A stretch of 64,000 bases of DNA. It comes from Escherichia coli. Lineage in GTDB: Bacteria > Pseudomonadota > Gammaproteobacteria > Enterobacterales > Enterobacteriaceae. The notes under the pieces were generated by a model. That model searched no databases, had not been told where the DNA came from, and saw nothing but the letters and a program-made list of their open reading frames with translations. Location: assembly GCF_011045215.1 (NCBI RefSeq), contig NZ_CP049201.1; one strand, written 5' to 3'. A program made the translations under genes and the position numbers. Below are positions 1 through 14,478 of the stretch, piece by piece (positions within the stretch are counted from its first letter, which is position 1; each line of letters begins with the position of its first letter).

Positions 1-9
1 ACACTCTTA

Positions 10-375
10 TCATTCGCCGCGATAGATACAACCAGCGGTGCAGGTTTCTTTTACCATCACCGCACTTAACAGCGGCACAACGGGTTTAACCTGATCCCAA
101 ATCCATTTTGCTAAAACTTCGCTAGTTGGGTTTTCCAGACCTGGAATATCATTGAGATAATGGTGATCGAGGCGCTCATAAGTTGGCTTAAACGCCGCTT
201 TTAGTTCAGCGAAATCGATAATCCAGCCCGTATGCGGATCGACTTCCCCGGTAATTTCCAGTCGCACCATAAAGGAATGCCCGTGCAGGCGACCACATTT
301 ATGCCCTTCCGGGACGTGTGGTAAGCGGTGAGCGGCTTCGAAGGTGAAATCTTTAAATAACGTGGTGGACATCAT
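10..375 (-). CDS. queD: 6-carboxy-5,6,7,8-tetrahydropterin synthase (queuosine biosynthesis)
   Basis: ORF 10..459 trimmed to the [10 protein letters not shown] start (121 aa); QueD/PTPS motifs (HGHSF, CxxxxxHGH); divergent from cysJ. Confidence 0.9.
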
Positions 376-690
376 AATTTCTCTACAGGACGATAAAACC
401 GCCGTAGAGTACCGGAAAGGCTGTTTTTTCGCATTATCTAAAACGACTTTGTTGCGCACAATCGCTGATTTATCTTAATGATTGGCTAAATTCATTTGTT
501 TTTCATTAGGTTGGTTAATCTATTTTGTTGTTAAAGACTATTGCTAAAACAGGTTAGTCGATTTGGTTATTAGTTATCGCTATCCCGTCTTTAATCCACA
601 CCGTTCACCCCGTTAACCTTACCTTCTCTTCTGTTTTATGGGCGCTGACAGGGCGCAGAAACAGCTTTGCTTACTGGAACATAACGACGC

Positions 691-2490
691 ATGACGACAC
701 AGGTCCCACCTTCCGCGTTGCTTCCGTTGAACCCGGAGCAACTGGCACGCCTTCAGGCGGCCACGACCGATTTAACTCCCACCCAGCTTGCCTGGGTTTC
801 TGGCTATTTCTGGGGCGTGCTCAATCAGCAGCCTGCTGCGCTTGCAGCGACGCCAGCGCCAGCCGCAGAAATGCCGGGTATAACTATTATCTCCGCCTCG
901 CAAACCGGCAATGCGCGCCGGGTTGCTGAAGCATTACGCGATGATTTATTGACGGCAAAACTGAACGTTAAGCTGGTGAACGCGGGCGACTATAAATTCA
1001 AACAAATCGCCAGCGAAAAACTGCTTATCGTGGTGACGTCAACGCAAGGAGAAGGGGAACCGCCGGAAGAAGCCGTCGCGCTGCATAAGTTCCTGTTCTC
1101 CAAAAAAGCGCCGAAGCTGGAAAACACCGCATTTGCCGTGTTTAGCCTCGGCGATAGCTCTTATGAATTTTTCTGTCAGTCCGGGAAAGATTTTGACAGC
1201 AAGCTGGCGGAACTGGGCGGTGAACGCCTGCTCGACCGTGTCGATGCCGACGTTGAATACCAGACCGCTGCCAGCGAGTGGCGCGCTCGCGTGGTTGATG
1301 CGCTTAAATCGCGTGCGCCTGTCGCGGCACCTTCGCAATCCGTCGCTACTGGCGTGGTAAATGAAATCCACACCAGCCCGTACAGCAAAGACTCGCCGCT
1401 GGTGGCGAGCCTCTCTGTTAACCAGAAAATTACCGGGCGTAACTCTGAAAAAGACGTTCGCCATATCGAAATTGACTTAGGTGACTCGGGCCTGCGTTAC
1501 CAGCCGGGTGACGCGCTGGGTGTCTGGTATCAGAACGATCCGGCACTGGTGAAAGAACTTGTCGAACTGCTGTGGCTGAAAGGCGATGAACCTGTCACCG
1601 TCGAGGGCAAAACGTTGCCTCTGAACGAAGCGCTACAGTGGCACTTCGAACTGACCGTCAACACCGCCAACATTGTTGAGAATTACGCCACGCTTACCCG
1701 CAGCGAAACACTGCTGCCGCTGGTGGGCGATAAAGCGAAGTTACAGCATTACGCCGCGACGACGCCGATTGTTGACATGGTGCGTTTCTCCCCGGCACAG
1801 CTTGATGCCGAAGCGCTAATTAATCTGCTGCGCCCGCTGACGCCGCGTCTCTATTCCATTGCCTCCTCGCAGGCGGAAGTCGAGAACGAAGTACACGTCA
1901 CCGTTGGTGTGGTGCGTTACGACGTGGAAGGCCGCGCCCGTGCCGGTGGTGCCTCCAGCTTCCTCGCTGACCGCGTGGAAGAAGAGGGCGAAGTCCGCGT
2001 ATTTATCGAACATAACGATAACTTCCGCCTACCAGCCAATCCAGAAACCCCGGTGATTATGATTGGCCCAGGCACCGGTATCGCGCCGTTCCGCGCCTTT
2101 ATGCAGCAACGTGCTGCCGATGAAGCACCGGGTAAAAACTGGCTGTTCTTTGGCAACCCGCATTTTACGGAAGATTTCCTCTACCAGGTGGAGTGGCAGC
2201 GCTACGTCAAAGAGGGCGTGCTGACACGTATCGATCTCGCCTGGTCGCGCGATCAAAAAGAAAAAGTTTACGTACAAGACAAACTACGCGAACAGGGCGC
2301 GGAGCTGTGGCGCTGGATCAATGACGGTGCCCACATTTATGTCTGCGGCGACGCTAATCGCATGGCGAAAGACGTTGAGCAGGCACTTCTGGAAGTGATT
2401 GCCGAATTTGGTGGCATGGACACCGAAGCGGCGGATGAATTTTTAAGTGAGCTGCGCGTAGAGCGCCGTTATCAGCGAGATGTCTACTAA
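691..2490 (+). CDS. cysJ: Sulfite reductase [NADPH] flavoprotein alpha subunit
   Basis: 599 aa; flavodoxin-like N-terminal and FAD/NADPH-binding C-terminal domains; first gene of cysJIH. Confidence 0.97.
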
Positions 2491-4202
2491 TGAGCGAAAA
2501 ACATCCAGGGCCTTTAGTGGTCGAAGGAAAACTGACAGACGCCGAGCGCATGAAGCTTGAAAGCAACTACCTGCGCGGCACCATTGCGGAAGATTTAAAC
2601 GACGGTCTGACCGGCGGCTTTAAGGGCGACAACTTCCTGCTGATCCGCTTCCACGGCATGTATCAGCAGGATGACCGCGACATCCGCGCCGAACGTGCTG
2701 AACAGAAGCTGGAGCCGCGCCATGCGATGCTGTTGCGCTGCCGTCTGCCGGGTGGAGTTATCACCACCAAACAGTGGCAGGCGATCGATAAATTTGCCGG
2801 TGAAAACACCATCTATGGCAGCATTCGCCTGACCAACCGCCAGACATTCCAGTTCCACGGCATTCTGAAAAAGAACGTCAAACCGGTGCACCAGATGCTG
2901 CACTCGGTCGGTCTTGATGCGCTGGCGACCGCTAACGACATGAACCGTAACGTACTCTGCACCTCGAACCCTTACGAGTCGCAGCTGCACGCAGAAGCGT
3001 ACGAGTGGGCGAAGAAAATCTCTGAACATCTGCTGCCTCGTACCCGCGCGTATGCGGAGATCTGGCTCGATCAGGAAAAAGTCGCCACCACTGATGAAGA
3101 ACCGATCCTCGGCCAGACCTACCTGCCGCGTAAATTCAAAACCACGGTAGTGATCCCGCCACAGAACGATATCGATCTGCACGCCAACGACATGAACTTC
3201 GTGGCGATCGCCGAAAACGGCAAGCTGGTGGGCTTTAACCTGTTGGTGGGCGGTGGGCTTTCCATCGAACACGGCAACAAGAAAACCTACGCCCGCACCG
3301 CGAGTGAGTTTGGCTATCTGCCGCTAGAGCATACGCTAGCGGTGGCGGAAGCCGTCGTGACAACTCAGCGTGACTGGGGTAACCGAACCGATCGTAAAAA
3401 TGCTAAAACCAAATACACGCTGGAGCGCGTGGGGGTTGAGACGTTTAAAGCGGAAGTGGAGCGTCGCGCGGGGATCAAATTTGAACCGATCCGTCCGTAT
3501 GAGTTCACCGGACGCGGAGATCGTATTGGCTGGGTTAAGGGCATTGATGATAACTGGCACCTGACGCTGTTTATCGAAAATGGTCGCATCCTTGATTATC
3601 CGGGGCGTCCGTTGAAAACCGGCCTGCTGGAGATCGCGAAGATCCACAAAGGTGATTTCCGCATTACGGCGAACCAGAATCTGATCATCGCCGGTGTGCC
3701 GGAAAGCGAGAAAGCGAAGATCGAGAAGATCGCCAAAGAGAGCGGGTTAATGAATGCCGTCACGCCGCAGCGTGAAAACTCAATGGCCTGCGTCTCGTTC
3801 CCGACTTGCCCGCTGGCGATGGCGGAAGCGGAGCGTTTCCTACCGTCTTTTATCGACAACATCGATAATTTAATGGCGAAACATGGTGTTAGCGATGAGC
3901 ATATCGTGATGCGTGTAACAGGCTGCCCGAACGGTTGTGGTCGCGCGATGCTGGCGGAAGTGGGCCTGGTGGGTAAAGCGCCGGGTCGCTACAACCTGCA
4001 TCTTGGCGGCAACCGTATTGGGACACGTATCCCACGGATGTATAAAGAAAACATCACCGAGCCGGAAATCCTGGCGTCGCTTGATGAACTGATAGGGCGC
4101 TGGGCGAAAGAGCGCGAAGCGGGTGAAGGCTTCGGCGACTTTACGGTGCGTGCGGGCATCATTCGCCCGGTGCTCGATCCGGCGCGCGATTTGTGGGATT
4201 AA
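2490..4202 (+). CDS. cysI: Sulfite reductase [NADPH] hemoprotein beta subunit
   Basis: 570 aa; siroheme/4Fe-4S sulfite reductase motifs (TGCPNGC); start overlaps the cysJ stop. Confidence 0.97.
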
Positions 4203-4275: not shown

Positions 4276-5010
4276 ATGCCCAAACTCGATCTAAACGCCC
4301 TGAACGAACTGCCGAAGGTAGATCGCATTCTGGCGCTGGCAGAAACTAACGCCCAACTGGAAAAACTGGACGCTGAAGGCCGCGTAGCCTGGGCGCTGGA
4401 TAATCTGCCCGGTGAATATGTGCTTTCTTCCAGCTTCGGCATTCAGGCGGCGGTGAGCCTGCATCTGGTGAATCAGATTCGCCCGGATATTCCAGTGATC
4501 CTCACCGATACCGGTTACTTGTTCCCGGAAACCTACCGCTTTATTGACGAGTTAACGGACAAACTCAAGCTCAACCTGAAAGTGTACCGTGCTACCGAAA
4601 GCGCAGCCTGGCAGGAAGCACGCTACGGAAAACTGTGGGAGCAGGGCGTTGAAGGCATTGAAAAGTACAATGACATCAACAAAGTCGAACCGATGAACCG
4701 GGCGCTGAAAGAACTTAACGCGCAAACGTGGTTTGCTGGCCTGCGCCGTGAACAATCCGGCAGCCGCGCCAATTTACCGGTGCTGGCAATTCAGCGTGGC
4801 GTATTTAAAGTGCTGCCGATTATCGACTGGGATAACCGAACTATTTATCAGTACCTGCAAAAACATGGCCTGAAATATCACCCATTATGGGACGAAGGAT
4901 ATTTATCGGTGGGCGATACCCATACAACTCGTAAATGGGAACCCGGCATGGCGGAAGAAGAAACGCGTTTCTTTGGCTTAAAAAGGGAATGTGGGTTACA
5001 CGAAGGGTAA
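4276..5010 (+). CDS. cysH: Phosphoadenosine phosphosulfate (PAPS) reductase
   Basis: ORF 4123..5010 trimmed to the MPKLDLNAL start (244 aa); PAPS reductase family with C-terminal ECGLH motif; GAGG RBS upstream. Confidence 0.95.
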
Positions 5011-5028
5011 TTAATGCCGGATAAATTA

Positions 5029-5066
5029 AACGCCTCTGTCAGAAATGATGGGGGCGTTTTTATTTT
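5029..5066 (+). terminator. Putative rho-independent terminator downstream of cysH
   Basis: GC-rich inverted repeat (aaacgcc...ggcgttt) followed by a T-run; approximate. Confidence 0.4.
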
Positions 5067-5274
5067 GCGAGCAGCATTCCTGATTTTAAACGTGAACGCC
5101 GCTGGAAGAATTATCAGGTATAGAATGGCGTCGGGTGCTTGAGGCTGTCTGGCGTTAAGCATTCGCGAGGTTCCAGATGGACAAAAGCCCCAGGCGATAT
5201 TTCTATCAACCTGAGGCCAGCGTTCGAACCTAAGCAATTCGAATGTTAGTCTCTTCTTTGCAGGGAGGCAAGAC

Positions 5275-5427
5275 ATGCTGACAAAATATGCCCTTGTGGC
5301 AATCATCGTACTGTGTTGTACAGTACTGGGATTCACGCTGATGGTAGGCGACTCGTTGTGTGAGTTGAGTATCAGAGAACGTGGTATGGAGTTTAAGGCT
5401 GTTCTCGCTTACGAATCGAAGAAGTAG
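5275..5427 (+). CDS. hokX: Hok/Gef-family type I toxin (small membrane peptide)
   Basis: 50-aa ORF not in the track (below size cutoff): [50 protein letters not shown]; GGAGG RBS 6-10 nt upstream; hairpin downstream; symbol assigned from position in the cysH-cas3 intergenic region. Confidence 0.75.
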
Positions 5428-5459
5428 CCACCACGCGGGGGTAAAACCCCGCGTATTGA

Positions 5460-5619
5460 ATTGTGATGGTTTGGTCTCCTGCACCCTTTTTTAAATTTAT
5501 ATTTTTTATGTGAATATATTGTCTCTATTTATTATTATGAATTTCAAATGAAAATCATAAATTTATTCACAATATAAATGTTTTATTGGCTGATATATAT
5601 CACAGATAATTTTTAAAAT
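5460..5619 (+). promoter_or_regulatory. AT-rich region upstream of cas3 (likely cas3 promoter and nucleoid-protein silencing region)
   Basis: About 160 bp of very AT-rich sequence immediately 5' of cas3; no specific motifs mapped. Confidence 0.4.
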
Positions 5620-8319
5620 ATGCGTAAATATCCTTTAAGTTTACTGAAGGATAAAAATATTGTGACTTTCTTTGATTTCTGGGGAAAAACCCGACGCGAC
5701 GAGAAAGAAGGGGGTGACGACTATCACCTTCTTTGCTGGCATTCGCTGGATGTGGCCGCGATGGGCTATTTAATGGTTAAAAGAAATTGCTTCGGGCTGG
5801 CTGATTATTTTCGTCAATTAGGGATTTCTGACAAGGAACAGGCGGCTCAATTTTTCGCCTGGTTGTTGTGCTGGCACGATATTGGAAAATTTGCCCGCTC
5901 ATTTCAGCAACTTTACCTGCACCCACAACTCAAGGTTCCGGAAGGCGCAAGAAAGAATTACGAAAAGATCTCTCATTCAACGCTGGGCTACTGGTTGTGG
6001 CATCATTATTTAAGTGAATGCGAAGAATTGCTTCCTGCCTCTTCACTCTCTACTCGCAAACTTAAACGTGTAATAGCGATGTGGATGCCCATGACTACCG
6101 GGCATCATGGTCGGCCCCCTGACCGTATTGATGAACTGGATAATTTTCTGCCTGAAGACAAAGTTGCCGCGCGAGATTTTCTCCTTGAAATCAAGGCACT
6201 GTGTCCGCTCATAGAGATTCCCACATTCTGGGATAATGACGAGGGAGTTGAACTTTTAAAACAACTTTCCTGGTATATCTCTGCAACAGTCGTACTTGCA
6301 GACTGGACGGGTTCGTCAACGCGATTTTTTCCACGCGTCGCACACCCAATGGATATTAAAGATTACTGGCAGAAAACTTTAGTTCAGGCTCAAAACGCCT
6401 TAACCGTCTTTCCTCCAAAAGCAGAAACCGCACCTTTCACCGGAATTAATACGCTGTTTCCTTTTATTGAGCACCCGACACCATTACAGCAAAAGGTGCT
6501 GGATCTGGATATCAGCCAGCCAGGGCCACAGTTATTTATTCTGGAAGACGTGACTGGCGCAGGTAAAACAGAAGCGGCGCTTATCCTGGCGCACAGGTTG
6601 ATGGCTGCGAGGAAAGCACAGGGTTTGTTTTTTGGCCTGCCAACAATGGCAACGGCCAATGCCATGTACGATCGGCTGGTCAAAACCTGGCTTGCTTTCT
6701 TTTCGCCAGAATCCCGCCCCAGCCTGGTGCTGGCACACAGCGCCCGTACATTAATGGAACGCTTTAATGAATCACTCTGGTCCGGTGATTTAGTCGGGTC
6801 AGAAGAACCGGATGAACAAGCGTTCAGTCAAGGATGTGCAGCCTGGTTTGCCGACAGTAACAAGAAGGCTTTACTGGCTGAAATTGGCGTCGGCACGCTG
6901 GATCAGGCGATGATGGCAGTGATGCCGTTTAAACATAATAATCTGCGGCTTCTGGGGTTGAGTAACAAAATCCTGCTGGCTGATGAGATCCACGCCTGTG
7001 ACGCTTACATGTCGTACATTCTTGAAGGGTTGATTGAGCGACAGGTGCGTGGCGGAAACAGCGTCATTTTGCTTTCTGCTACGTTATCTCAACAGCAGCG
7101 CGACAAACTTGTCGCCGCCTTTGCGCGTGGCACAGAGGGCCAGCAAGAAGCTCCGTTCCTGGAAAAGGATGATTACCCCTGGCTGACGCATGTCACGAAA
7201 TCCGATGTGCATTCGCACCGGGTAGCGACGCGCAAAGACGTTGAGCGTAGCGTGAGCGTGGGTTGGCTTCATAGCGAACAAGAATGTATTGCGCGTATCG
7301 AATCAGCGGTAAGTCAGGGGAAATGCATCGCCTGGATCCGGAATTCTGTCGATGACGCTATTAAGGTTTATCGTCAGTTACTTGCCCGCGGCGTCATTCC
7401 TGCTTCCAGCCTTTCACTTTTTCATAGCCGCTTTGCTTTTAGCGATCGCCAGCGAATTGAAACGGAAACGCTGGCACGCTTTGGTAAAAATTGTAGTTTA
7501 AAAAGATCATCTCAAGTCATTGTTTGTACACAAGTAATTGAGCAAAGTGTGGATATTGACCTGGACGAAATGATCTCCGACCTGGCCCCCATTGATTTGC
7601 TGATCCAGCGAGCGGGGCGATTACAACGGCATATTCGCGATATTAATGGTCAGTTAAAGCGTGATGGAAAAGACGAGCGTTCCCCTCCTGAATTGCTGAT
7701 TCTGGCCCCCGTCTGGGACGACTCTCCGGGTGACGAATGGTTTGGCAGTGCGATGCGTAACAGCGCATATGTCTACCCCGATCATGGGCGAATCTGGCTG
7801 ACGCAGCGAGTATTGCGTGAGCAAGGCGCTATTCAGATGCCACACGCAGCCCGGCTTCTTATTGAATCCGTCTACGGTGAGGACGTGGTAATGCCGGAAG
7901 GATTTGCCCGCAGCGAGCAGGAGCAAGTGGGCAAATATTACTGCGATCGCGCAATGGCTAAAAAGTTTATGCTGAACTTCAGGCCCGGCTATGCCGCCAA
8001 TATCAACGATTACCTCCCGGAAAAGCTGTCGACACGTCTGGCTGAAGAGTCTGTTTCCCTGTGGCTGGCTACCTGTATTGACGGTGTGGTGAAGCCTTAT
8101 GCCAGCGGTGCTCACGCATGGGAAATGAGCGTTGCCAGAGTGCGTCGAAGCTGGTGGAAAAAACATCGGGATGAATTTTCTTTACTGGAAGGGGAAGCGT
8201 TCAGGCAGTGGTGTGTTGAACAACGGCAAGATCCGGAGATGGCAAACGTGATTTTAGTCACTGATGACGAAAGTTGCGGGTATTCGGCCAGGGAGGGATT
8301 GATTGGCAAGGTTGATTGA
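5620..8319 (+). CDS. cas3: Type I-E CRISPR-associated helicase/nuclease Cas3 (HD nuclease + SF2 helicase)
   Basis: 899 aa; N-terminal HD motifs (HLLCWHSLDVAA, WHDIGK), Walker A (GAGKTEAA) and DExH-like LADEIHA; start taken from the only upstream ATG, true start may be an internal GTG. Confidence 0.93.
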   Translation: MRKYPLSLLKDKNIVTFFDFWGKTRRDEKEGGDDYHLLCWHSLDVAAMGYLMVKRNCFGLADYFRQLGISDKEQAAQFFAWLLCWHDIGKFARSFQQLYLHPQLKVPEGARKNYEKISHSTLGYWLWHHYLSECEELLPASSLSTRKLKRVIAMWMPMTTGHHGRPPDRIDELDNFLPEDKVAARDFLLEIKALCPLIEIPTFWDNDEGVELLKQLSWYISATVVLADWTGSSTRFFPRVAHPMDIKDYWQKTLVQAQNALTVFPPKAETAPFTGINTLFPFIEHPTPLQQKVLDLDISQPGPQLFILEDVTGAGKTEAALILAHRLMAARKAQGLFFGLPTMATANAMYDRLVKTWLAFFSPESRPSLVLAHSARTLMERFNESLWSGDLVGSEEPDEQAFSQGCAAWFADSNKKALLAEIGVGTLDQAMMAVMPFKHNNLRLLGLSNKILLADEIHACDAYMSYILEGLIERQVRGGNSVILLSATLSQQQRDKLVAAFARGTEGQQEAPFLEKDDYPWLTHVTKSDVHSHRVATRKDVERSVSVGWLHSEQECIARIESAVSQGKCIAWIRNSVDDAIKVYRQLLARGVIPASSLSLFHSRFAFSDRQRIETETLARFGKNCSLKRSSQVIVCTQVIEQSVDIDLDEMISDLAPIDLLIQRAGRLQRHIRDINGQLKRDGKDERSPPELLILAPVWDDSPGDEWFGSAMRNSAYVYPDHGRIWLTQRVLREQGAIQMPHAARLLIESVYGEDVVMPEGFARSEQEQVGKYYCDRAMAKKFMLNFRPGYAANINDYLPEKLSTRLAEESVSLWLATCIDGVVKPYASGAHAWEMSVARVRRSWWKKHRDEFSLLEGEAFRQWCVEQRQDPEMANVILVTDDESCGYSAREGLIGKVD

Positions 8320-14170: not shown

Positions 14171-14266
14171 GTTATGTGTTCTTTAAAAATAAGGAAATGT
14201 TTGAATTTAGTTGGTAGATTGTTGATGTGGAATAAATTTGTTTAAAAACAGATATGTATGCTTAGT
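14171..14266 (+). promoter_or_regulatory. CRISPR leader (AT-rich; array promoter and integration-proximal region)
   Basis: 96-bp AT-rich sequence between the cas2 stop and the first repeat. Confidence 0.8.
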
Positions 14267-14478
14267 GTGTTCCCCGCGCCAGCGGGGATAAACCGGTGCA
14301 TAAAAAATGATACCCCAGCGTTTCGTTGTGTTCCCCGCGCCAGCGGGGATAAACCGATTGAAATAGATCTCCCCGACATTAACGAACAGTGTTCCCCGCG
14401 CCAGCGGGGATAAACCGGGCGCACTGGATGCGATGATGGATATCACTTAGAATTCCCCGCCCCTGCGGTAGAACTCCC
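14267..14478 (+). CRISPR. Type I-E CRISPR array: 4 repeats (29 bp) and 3 spacers (32 bp)
   Basis: Repeat GTGTTCCCCGCGCCAGCGGGGATAAACCG at 14267-14295, 14328-14356 and 14389-14417; degenerate terminal repeat GAATTCCCCGCCCCTGCGGTAGAACTCCC at 14450-14478; spacers at 14296-14327, 14357-14388 and 14418-14449. Confidence 0.97.

What the first reader, a model, noticed from the sequence alone, without database searches (positions are those of the whole stretch)
5620..5700. Ambiguous cas3 translation start
The only in-frame ATG upstream of the HD domain is at 5620, with a weak RBS. The conserved WGK motif lies about 20 residues in, further from the N-terminus than I recall for K-12 Cas3. An in-frame GTG about 14 codons downstream (near 5662), preceded by AAGGA, is an alternative.
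Basis: inference. Interest (0 to 1): 0.2.

Follow-up and report, generated by a model that had tools for sequence, protein, structure and literature searches.

The report
cas3 starts at GTG, not ATG
The CRISPR nuclease gene cas3 in this Escherichia window most likely begins at the GTG at 5662, 14 codons after the ATG that databases annotate; this is an ordinary annotation over-extension, not a new biological feature.

Summary
ATG 5620 follows an in-frame TAA (5614-5616) and has no Shine-Dalgarno. GTG 5662 is codon 15, preceded by AAGGA (5647-5651). WGK lies at residues 21-23, against 11-13 in K-12 Cas3.

- Of 101 homologue clusters without the E. coli extension, 93 have the W at residue 5-7, which matches a start at 5662.
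- In Salmonella enterica, Klebsiella pneumoniae and E. albertii (intact cas3), a GTG at the equivalent codon is the only in-frame ATG/GTG/TTG after the upstream stop.
- G+C jumps from 24% to 50% exactly at 5662.
- The predicted Shine-Dalgarno duplex energy is -5.5 kcal/mol for GTG and +0.4 for ATG.
- Published Cappable-seq of E. coli O157:H7 EDL933, identical to the window over 5583-5697, maps a cas3 transcription start at the equivalent of window 5639. That is downstream of the ATG and 23 nt upstream of the GTG.

RefSeq annotates the 899-aa ATG form. The stretch 5620-5664 is identical in 2614 of 2624 E. coli genomes. It shows no synonymous-type variation, which fits a promoter and 5'UTR rather than coding sequence.

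An extra ATG-initiated isoform from upstream transcripts is not excluded. Interest is low.

The parts
5662..8319 (+). cas3 coding sequence as proposed here (885 codons plus stop). It encodes a type I-E Cas3 HD nuclease/helicase of the Salmonella-like E. coli variant.
   Evidence: ORF. Pfam Cas3_HD 21-237 and Cas3-like_C_2; NCBIfam cas3_core and cas3_HD. Homology to orthologues begins at query residues 1-6 of the GTG-start protein in about 80 genomes.
5662..5664 (+). GTG, the proposed translation initiation codon.
   Evidence: It is orthologous to the GTG that is the only possible start in Salmonella, K. pneumoniae and E. albertii. C. rodentium, C. youngae and S. diarizonae also have GTG here. 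Phytobacter has TTG. Cronobacter and one E. coli allele have ATG. It is invariant in all 10 aligned Escherichia sequences.
5647..5651 (+). AAGGA Shine-Dalgarno element, 10 nt before the GTG.
   Evidence: Duplex with the 16S 3' end is -5.5 kcal/mol. Comparable SD elements precede the equivalent start in orthologues, at -3.0 to -6.9 kcal/mol.
5639..5639 (+). Position equivalent to the Cappable-seq transcription start of cas3 in E. coli O157:H7 EDL933 (genome position 3694696, minus strand).
   Evidence: PMC10469882 Table S5 sheet 2. EDL933 cas3 CDS is 3692016-3694715. Base-by-base reading. Window 5583-5697 is identical to EDL933.
5620..5622 (+). ATG that RefSeq/PGAP annotates as the cas3 start in E. 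coli (899 aa). Here it is interpreted as lying in the core promoter, 19 nt upstream of the mapped TSS.
   Evidence: Annotations. No SD. Out of frame in L010 and absent in E. albertii.
5620..5661 (+). The 14 'extension' codons (MRKYPLSLLKDKNI). They are probably non-coding: the promoter -10 region, the TSS and the 5'UTR.
   Evidence: G+C is 23.8%, like the 24.7% intergenic DNA upstream and unlike the 50% of the gene. 0 of 42 sites vary in 8 E. coli, against 13.8% in the gene. Identity to E. albertii is 50% with a 2-nt indel, against 76% just downstream.
5592..5669 (+). Island of nucleotide conservation within E. coli, spanning about -47 to +31 relative to the mapped TSS.
   Evidence: One variable site (5617) in 78 nt among 8 diverse E. 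coli. 5620-5664 is identical in 2614 of 2624 genomes. Flanks are much more variable.
5614..5616 (+). In-frame TAA that closes the reading frame two codons before ATG 5620.
5680..5688 (+). W-G-K motif, the first conserved residues of the Cas3 HD domain.
   Evidence: Pfam Cas3_HD profile position 1 aligns to W21. W7 G8 K9 are invariant in the 30-sequence alignment.
5629..5653 (+). Predicted hairpin UAUCCUUUA/UGAAGGAUA that would pair the SD. It can exist only in transcripts that start upstream of 5629.
   Evidence: -8.2 kcal/mol, z = -1.86, 8 of 200 shuffles fold as well. Its 5' arm lies upstream of the mapped TSS at 5639.

Best explanation
The gene is an ordinary type I-E cas3 whose translation starts at GTG 5662, giving an 885-aa protein with N-terminus (f)Met-TFFDFWGK. 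The AAGGA Shine-Dalgarno at 5647-5651 serves this start. The mRNA 5' end lies at about 5639, giving a 23-nt leader.

The in-frame ATG at 5620 sits in the AT-rich core promoter, upstream of that transcription start. It is not part of this mRNA. The 899-aa RefSeq model is therefore over-extended by 14 codons.

What is shown:
- the sequence features;
- the position of the start in orthologues;
- the composition boundary at 5662;
- the conservation pattern within E. coli;
- a published TSS in an E. coli strain identical over this stretch.

What is inferred:
- that the same TSS is used in the window's strain;
- that no other transcript supplies the ATG;
- that ribosomes actually initiate at the GTG.
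For: 1. Among the 120 best homologue clusters, the MRKYPLSLLKDKNIV extension occurs only in 14 E. coli-type entries. Of the other 101 with an N-terminus, W of WGK is at residue 7 in 73, 5 in 16 and 6 in 4. A GTG-5662 start puts W at residue 7.
2. DNA evidence independent of annotation: in Salmonella enterica, K. pneumoniae and E. albertii (intact cas3, 92% identical) the only in-frame ATG/GTG/TTG between the upstream stop and WGK is a GTG at the equivalent codon. C. rodentium, C. youngae and S. diarizonae also have GTG there. A divergent E. coli allele has ATG there, with a stop 5 codons upstream.
3. tblastn homology in about 80 genomes starts at residues 1-6 of the GTG-start protein. The K-12-type Cas3 profile aligns its position 4 to residue 14.
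4. G+C is 24.7% over 5438-5619, 23.8% over 5620-5661, 50% over 5662-5703 and 50% for the gene.
5. SD duplex energy is -5.5 kcal/mol for GTG and +0.4 for ATG.
6. Cappable-seq of EDL933 lists a Cas3 TSS at 3694696. That is 19 nt downstream of the annotated ATG (CDS end 3694715). It was seen in all four stationary-phase conditions. The authors attribute such downstream TSSs to wrongly annotated start codons (PMC10469882). The window is identical to EDL933 over 5583-5697.
7. 5620-5661 shows 0 of 42 variable sites in 8 E. coli. The coding region shows 13.8%, with 59 of 97 variable sites at third codon positions. About 3.5 variable third positions would be expected in 14 codons if they were coding.
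8. 5620-5661 is only 50% identical to E. albertii and carries a frame-breaking 2-nt indel, like the intergenic DNA.
Against: - The ATG is in frame, and no stop separates it from the GTG in 2614 of 2624 E. coli genomes. An ATG-initiated product is therefore possible whenever a transcript includes it.
- ATG is intrinsically a stronger initiator than GTG, and AU-rich unstructured leaders can support SD-independent initiation (general knowledge).
- The stored copy of the TSS table is truncated for upstream TSSs (sheet 1 stops at gene 11675). An additional upstream cas3 TSS in EDL933, or read-through from hok/cysJIH, cannot be excluded.
- The TSS was measured in EDL933, not in the window's strain.
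- A stretch of about 20 residues before the W is tolerated in T. fusca Cas3, so the extension is not structurally absurd.
- No protein-level or ribosome-level data were found.
- The frameshift between ATG and GTG in strain SCPM-O-B-8794 comes from a cas3 remnant truncated into CRISPR repeats, so it carries little weight.
Confidence: 0.85

Rival explanations
1. ATG 5620 is the genuine and only start, as RefSeq annotates it. On this view E. coli Cas3 of this variant carries a lineage-specific 14-residue N-terminal extension (899 aa).
For: PGAP annotates it in E. coli. The ATG and the open frame are conserved in 2614 of 2624 genomes. ATG is a stronger start codon than GTG. T. fusca Cas3 also has about 20 residues before its WAK motif.
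Against: - There is no SD.
- The extension is absent from all non-E. coli orthologues and from E. albertii.
- G+C and divergence from E. albertii are those of intergenic DNA.
- There is no synonymous variation.
- The mapped TSS lies downstream of the ATG.
- PGAP still calls an 898-aa product in a strain where IS1 separates the ATG from the gene. The long model therefore looks propagated by homology rather than supported by local evidence.
Confidence: 0.05
2. Both starts are used. Transcripts from the mapped TSS at 5639 give the 885-aa protein from the GTG. Longer transcripts (an upstream promoter, or read-through from hok/cysJIH) also allow initiation at ATG 5620, giving a minor 899-aa isoform.
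For: The frame between ATG and GTG is open in nearly all E. coli. Upstream TSS data are unavailable because the table is truncated. In long transcripts the GTG's SD is predicted to pair in a hairpin at 5629-5653, which would favour the ATG there.
Against: There is no SD for the ATG. Nothing indicates selection on the 14 codons as protein. No upstream TSS was seen in the data that could be read. A hairpin follows the hok ORF at about 5428-5455, though it lacks a clear T-run and was not called by the terminator scan.
Confidence: 0.1

Closest known systems
Cas3 of Salmonella enterica / Klebsiella pneumoniae / Citrobacter type I-E systems (about 882-888 aa, N-terminus M-x-I-[FY]-x-[YF]-WGK)
   Same: 70-75% protein identity over the whole length. 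In K. pneumoniae, C. rodentium and Raoultella the gene likewise follows cysH. A GTG initiation codon sits at the same codon, 6 residues before the W. An SD-like element lies upstream.
   Different: E. coli of this variant additionally has an in-frame ATG 14 codons upstream, which annotation pipelines choose. The upstream AT-rich DNA is not alignable with those genera.
E. coli K-12 Cas3 (YgcB, 888 aa; NCBIfam NF007248)
   Same: Same function, same domain order and same chromosomal position downstream of cysH.
   Different: It is a different I-E variant. The window protein scores 429.9 bits against NF007248, below the cut-off of 569. K-12 has 10 residues before WGK (MEPFKYICHYWGK). The proposed GTG-start protein has 6.
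Start-codon over-extension in automated annotation ('longest ORF' or homology-propagated starts)
   Same: The annotated start is the most upstream ATG. It lacks an SD and lies upstream of the mapped TSS. Zehentner et al. 2023 (PMC10469882) list 466 such TSSs downstream of annotated starts in EDL933 and suggest that wrong start codons explain some of them.
   Different: Nothing essential. The cas3 case is in their supplementary table but is not discussed individually.

Membership tests
Type I-E Cas3 (HD nuclease + SF2 helicase) | N-terminal HD nuclease domain | tested here: met
   Pfam PF18019 Cas3_HD, residues 21-237, E = 3.4e-33. NCBIfam TIGR01596 cas3_HD.
Type I-E Cas3 (HD nuclease + SF2 helicase) | Cas3 helicase core and Cas3 C-terminal domain | tested here: met
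   TIGR01587 cas3_core scores 227 bits against a cut-off of 102. PF22590 Cas3-like_C_2, E = 2.8e-34. Matches to solved Cas3 structures 4q2c, 6c66 and 4qqw.
Type I-E Cas3 (HD nuclease + SF2 helicase) | Encoded next to the Cascade genes and a type I-E CRISPR array | tested here: met
   casA is annotated immediately downstream in near-identical E. coli records. Further ORFs of cas-gene size follow. Repeats GTGTTCCCCGCGCCAGCGGGGATAAACCG lie at 14266-14478 with 61-nt spacing.
K-12-type Cas3 equivalog (NCBIfam NF007248) | Score at or above the curated cut-off of 569 bits | tested here: not met
   429.9 bits. This is the other, Salmonella-like, E. coli I-E variant.
SD-led GTG-initiated bacterial gene | In-frame GTG preceded by a sequence complementary to the 16S 3' end at workable spacing | tested here: met
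   AAGGA at 5647-5651, 10 nt before the GTG; -5.5 kcal/mol, which is within the strongest 14% of positions sampled across the window.
SD-led GTG-initiated bacterial gene | Start codon lies downstream of the mRNA 5' end | tested here: met
   The EDL933 Cappable-seq TSS is equivalent to window 5639, 23 nt upstream of the GTG and 19 nt downstream of the ATG. It was measured in a different strain that is identical over this stretch.
SD-led GTG-initiated bacterial gene | Start position conserved in orthologues | tested here: met
SD-led GTG-initiated bacterial gene | Direct evidence of initiation (protein N-terminus, initiation profiling) | not testable with these tools
   One literature search for ribosome-profiling data on cas3 found none.
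SD-sequestering RNA switch / RNA thermometer in the cas3 leader | The SD-pairing hairpin is part of the cas3 mRNA and is more stable than chance | tested here: not met
   The hairpin at 5629-5653 has z = -1.86, and 8 of 200 shuffles fold as well. Its 5' arm (5629-5637) lies upstream of the mapped TSS at 5639, so it is absent from that transcript.
Sigma-70-type promoter for the mapped TSS | Recognisable -35 and -10 hexamers at the right distance from 5639 | tested here: inconclusive
   The consensus scan found only CTGATA-18-TAAAAT (5590-5619), whose expected start is near 5626, not 5639. By eye, AAATAT at 5626-5631 is a weak -10 candidate 7 nt from the TSS. The TSS is seen only in stationary phase.

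The most novel reading that the evidence does not exclude
The near-invariant block 5592-5669 might be a transcript-selective gate. On this reading, only RNA initiated at the stationary-phase TSS at 5639, inside the 5' arm of the hairpin at 5629-5653, exposes the AAGGA SD and lets Cas3 be made from the GTG. Read-through or upstream-initiated RNA would fold the SD into the hairpin and stay poorly translated, or would yield a 14-residue-longer isoform from the SD-less ATG. Cas3 synthesis would then be coupled to one promoter rather than to total transcript level.
Probability: 0.08. Interest if true: 0.45.

Novelty: already known. Interest (0 to 1): 0.15.

Why it matters
The value is practical rather than conceptual.
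- The 899-aa model is the form seen in the RefSeq E. coli records inspected and appears propagated by homology; about 2,600 complete E. coli genomes carry this allele. It probably adds 14 residues that are never made.
- Anyone cloning, tagging at the N-terminus, or mutating the 'coding' 5' end of this cas3 allele would in fact be altering its promoter and leader.
- The GTG start codon recurs across Salmonella, Klebsiella, Citrobacter and Escherichia. That fits the view that Cas3 is kept at a low level, but this is an inference and was not tested here.

Tried and rejected
- A first homologue search with only the N-terminal 264 aa returned almost only gene fragments and was of little use. The full-length query worked.
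- The consensus promoter scan suggested CTGATA-18-TAAAAT ending at 5619. Its implied start near 5626 does not match the mapped TSS at 5639, so I do not rely on it.
- An SD-sequestering hairpin or RNA thermometer was considered. Similar SD-pairing stems are predicted in strain SCPM-O-B-8794, E. albertii and C. youngae, but not in Salmonella or Phytobacter. No z-score is significant, and the 5' arm lies upstream of the mapped TSS. It is kept only as a low-probability reading.
- The 1-nt insertion that puts the ATG out of frame in strain SCPM-O-B-8794 looked decisive. That cas3 is truncated at about residue 420 and fused to CRISPR repeats, so it was down-weighted.
- The primer-extension study of Salmonella Typhi cas3 (Medina-Aparicio 2017, PMID 28270274) is not held. 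The cas3-promoter papers that were found concern K-12 or Acinetobacter.
- A search for ribosome-profiling evidence on cas3 found nothing.
- Tandem Repeats Finder missed the CRISPR array. The repeat finder found it.
- Distance of WGK from the N-terminus is not decisive on its own: about 20 residues precede the W in T. fusca Cas3.
Full report
**1. The observation**

The window carries cysJ, cysI, cysH, a 50-codon hok/gef-type ORF (5275-5427), an AT-rich gap, and then a 2.7-kb ORF at 5620..8319. That ORF encodes a type I-E Cas3. It matches Pfam Cas3_HD (residues 21-237), Cas3-like_C_2, NCBIfam cas3_core and cas3_HD, and the solved Cas3 structures 4q2c, 6c66 and 4qqw.

- The frame is closed by TAA at 5614-5616, so ATG 5620 is the longest possible start.
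- The only other ATG/GTG/TTG before the WGK motif (residues 21-23, 5680-5688) is GTG 5662, which is codon 15.
- AAGGA lies at 5647-5651, 10 nt before the GTG.
- K-12-lineage Cas3 begins MEPFKYICHYWGK, with the W at residue 11.

**2. Where the window comes from, and what databases say**

The stretch 5000-6400 is 99.6% identical to one environmental E. coli chromosome and about 93-96% identical to many others. In total, 2229 of 5426 complete E. coli genomes hold most of it.

RefSeq/PGAP annotates the ATG-start 899-aa protein in these genomes. The protein scores below the cut-off of the K-12-type Cas3 equivalog NF007248 (429.9 bits against 569). This is therefore the other, Salmonella-like, E. 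coli I-E variant.

**3. Orthologue N-termini**

I searched the full-length protein and examined the 120 best homologue clusters.

- The MRKYPLSLLKDKNIV extension occurs only in 14 E. coli-type entries.
- Five more clusters are N-terminally truncated calls.
- Of the remaining 101, W of WGK is at residue 7 in 73, residue 5 in 16 and residue 6 in 4. Only 8 have it further in.
- These clusters include Salmonella, Citrobacter, Klebsiella, Raoultella, Phytobacter, Enterobacter and Cronobacter.
- A start at GTG 5662 gives (M)TFFDFWGK, with W at residue 7.
- A few E. coli database entries already use that start (P0107, P0113).

**4. DNA-level check, independent of gene callers**

Protein N-termini in databases reflect gene-caller choices, so I went to the DNA.

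- In Salmonella enterica, K. pneumoniae and E. albertii, the only in-frame ATG/GTG/TTG between the upstream stop and WGK is a GTG at exactly the codon equivalent to 5662.
- The E. albertii cas3 is intact and 92% identical in protein.
- C. rodentium, C. youngae and S. diarizonae also have GTG there.
- Phytobacter has TTG, and Cronobacter has ATG with a stop one codon upstream.
- A divergent E. coli allele (P0055) has ATG there, with a stop five codons upstream.
- SD-like elements precede these starts, at -3.0 to -6.9 kcal/mol, except the P0055 allele (-1.4).
- In about 70 more distant genomes, tblastn homology to the GTG-start protein begins at query residue 1-6, and likely starts lie within a few codons of it.

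A GTG start at this codon is therefore an ancestral feature of this cas3 clade. The upstream ATG is peculiar to E. coli.

**5. Signals in the window itself**

- G+C is 24.7% in the gap 5438-5619, 23.8% in 5620-5661, 50% in 5662-5703 and 50% over the whole gene. The composition boundary sits at the GTG, not the ATG.
- The best duplex with the 16S rRNA 3' end is +0.4 kcal/mol before the ATG and -5.5 kcal/mol before the GTG.
- Against E. albertii, DNA identity is 52% over 5560-5619. It is 50% over 5620-5661, with a frame-breaking 2-nt indel. It is 76% over 5662-5730.
- The 14 'codons' share no residues with the E. albertii translation.

**6. Population data**

- The 45 nt at 5620-5664 are identical in 2614 of 2624 E. 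coli genomes that have them.
- The stretch 5600-5661 is identical in 1652 genomes and differs at one to three positions in 974. In the sampled cases the difference is a single mismatch (98.4% identity). In strain 05-3629 and two other aligned strains it is A5617T, upstream of the ATG.
- The next 62 coding nucleotides are identical to the window in only 35 genomes and 90-95% identical in 2260.
- The 62 nt upstream of 5600 are too diverged for megablast in all but 28 genomes.
- Among 8 diverse E. coli sequences, 5592-5669 has one variable site in 78.
- In the same 8 sequences the coding region has 13.8% variable sites, 59 of 97 at third codon positions. The upstream AT-rich DNA has 25-29%.
- If 5620-5661 were ordinary coding sequence, about 3.5 variable third positions would be expected. 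None is seen (P about 0.02 on that crude model).
- An equally long invariant run exists inside the gene (6298-6360), so this argument is supportive only.
- Invariance at every position fits a promoter and leader better than a dispensable peptide.

**7. Experimental transcription start**

Zehentner et al. 2023 (PMC10469882) ran Cappable-seq on E. coli O157:H7 EDL933.

- Table S5, sheet 'AGs with d_gTSS', lists TSSs downstream of annotated start codons.
- It gives one TSS for gene 19295 (Cas3, minus strand), at 3694696.
- That TSS was detected in all four stationary-phase conditions and in none of the four exponential ones.
- The EDL933 cas3 CDS is annotated 3692016-3694715. The TSS is therefore 19 nt downstream of the A of the ATG and 23 nt upstream of the GTG.
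- The window is identical to EDL933 over 5583-5697, so the equivalent position is G 5639.
- This mRNA lacks the ATG. It begins GUUUACUGAAGGAUAAAAAUAUU-GUG and keeps the SD.

Caveat: the stored copy of sheet 1 (upstream TSSs) is truncated before this gene. An additional upstream TSS cannot be excluded.

With the TSS at 5639, the conserved block 5592-5669 spans about -47 to +31. That is the core promoter, leader, SD and start codon, which explains why the ATG is conserved without being a start codon.

**8. Mechanism proposed, and alternatives**

- **Best explanation (0.85).** Transcription starts at about 5639, mainly in stationary phase. The 30S subunit binds AAGGA, and initiation occurs at GTG 5662 to give an 885-aa Cas3.
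- **ATG as the sole start (0.05).** This is contradicted by points 3 to 7.
- **Dual use (0.10).** This needs transcripts that include the ATG. None was seen, but the data are incomplete.

In longer transcripts a hairpin at 5629-5653 (UAUCCUUUA/UGAAGGAUA, -8.2 kcal/mol, z = -1.86) would pair the SD. This suggests a speculative transcript-selective gate. The fold is not statistically distinctive, and it is not conserved in Salmonella or Phytobacter.

**9. Comparison with the known, and novelty**

This is a standard type I-E cas3. Its true start matches the annotated start of the Salmonella, Klebsiella and Citrobacter orthologues. The discrepancy is a homology-propagated over-extension in E. coli annotation.

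Strain ST12468 illustrates the propagation. IS1 sits between the ATG and the GTG (target duplication tactgaagg), yet an 898-aa Cas3 is still called, starting inside the IS1 end.

Nothing here is new in kind.

Noticed in passing
window 5275-5427 (+): A 50-codon Hok/Gef-family toxin ORF ([50 protein letters not shown]) lies between cysH and cas3. It is followed by a GC-rich hairpin at about 5428-5455. Near-identical E. coli records annotate it as a Hok/Gef family protein. I did not look for a Sok-like antisense RNA.
   Followed up: partly
window ~5438 (junction); loci L085-L087, L096: In several E. coli strains (MB53, isolateA, EC590, ST12468) an IS421 (IS4-like) element is inserted between hok and the AT-rich cas3 upstream region, in either orientation. 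Homology to the window resumes at about 5438.
   Followed up: partly
L096 1520-2310 (E. coli ST12468), equivalent to window ~5642-5650: IS1A is inserted in the cas3 leader with target duplication tactgaagg. It cuts ATG 5620 and the mapped TSS away from the SD and GTG. PGAP nevertheless annotates an 898-aa Cas3 that starts inside the IS1 end (apparently at ATA), which suggests homology-forced start placement.
   Followed up: partly
window 8349 vs ~8417 (casA start): The mechanical ORF list starts casA at TTG 8349. RefSeq relatives start it at the equivalent of about 8417. This is a second start-site ambiguity in the same operon.
   Followed up: no
L010 ~2260-3227 (E. coli SCPM-O-B-8794): cas3 is truncated at about residue 420 and runs directly into CRISPR repeats (translated VFPAPAGINR, repeated). 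This indicates a deletion that removed the rest of cas3 and the cas operon. The same strain has a 1-nt insertion between the ATG and the GTG.
   Followed up: partly
proteins P0082-P0084, P0113, P0149-P0151: Several E. coli database proteins are chimeras. The Cas3 N-terminal part is fused to Cas1, Cse1, CasE or Cas7 domains. They presumably arise from internal deletions of the cas operon.
   Followed up: no
window 14266-14478 (+): A short CRISPR array: three good repeats GTGTTCCCCGCGCCAGCGGGGATAAACCG and one degenerate terminal repeat, with 61-nt spacing. Tandem Repeats Finder missed it.
   Followed up: partly
window 5639 (EDL933 3694696): The only cas3 TSS found in the readable part of the EDL933 Cappable-seq tables is specific to stationary phase (4 of 4 stationary conditions, 0 of 4 exponential). 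There is no good sigma-70 consensus upstream. The sigma factor and the role of H-NS were not examined.
   Followed up: no
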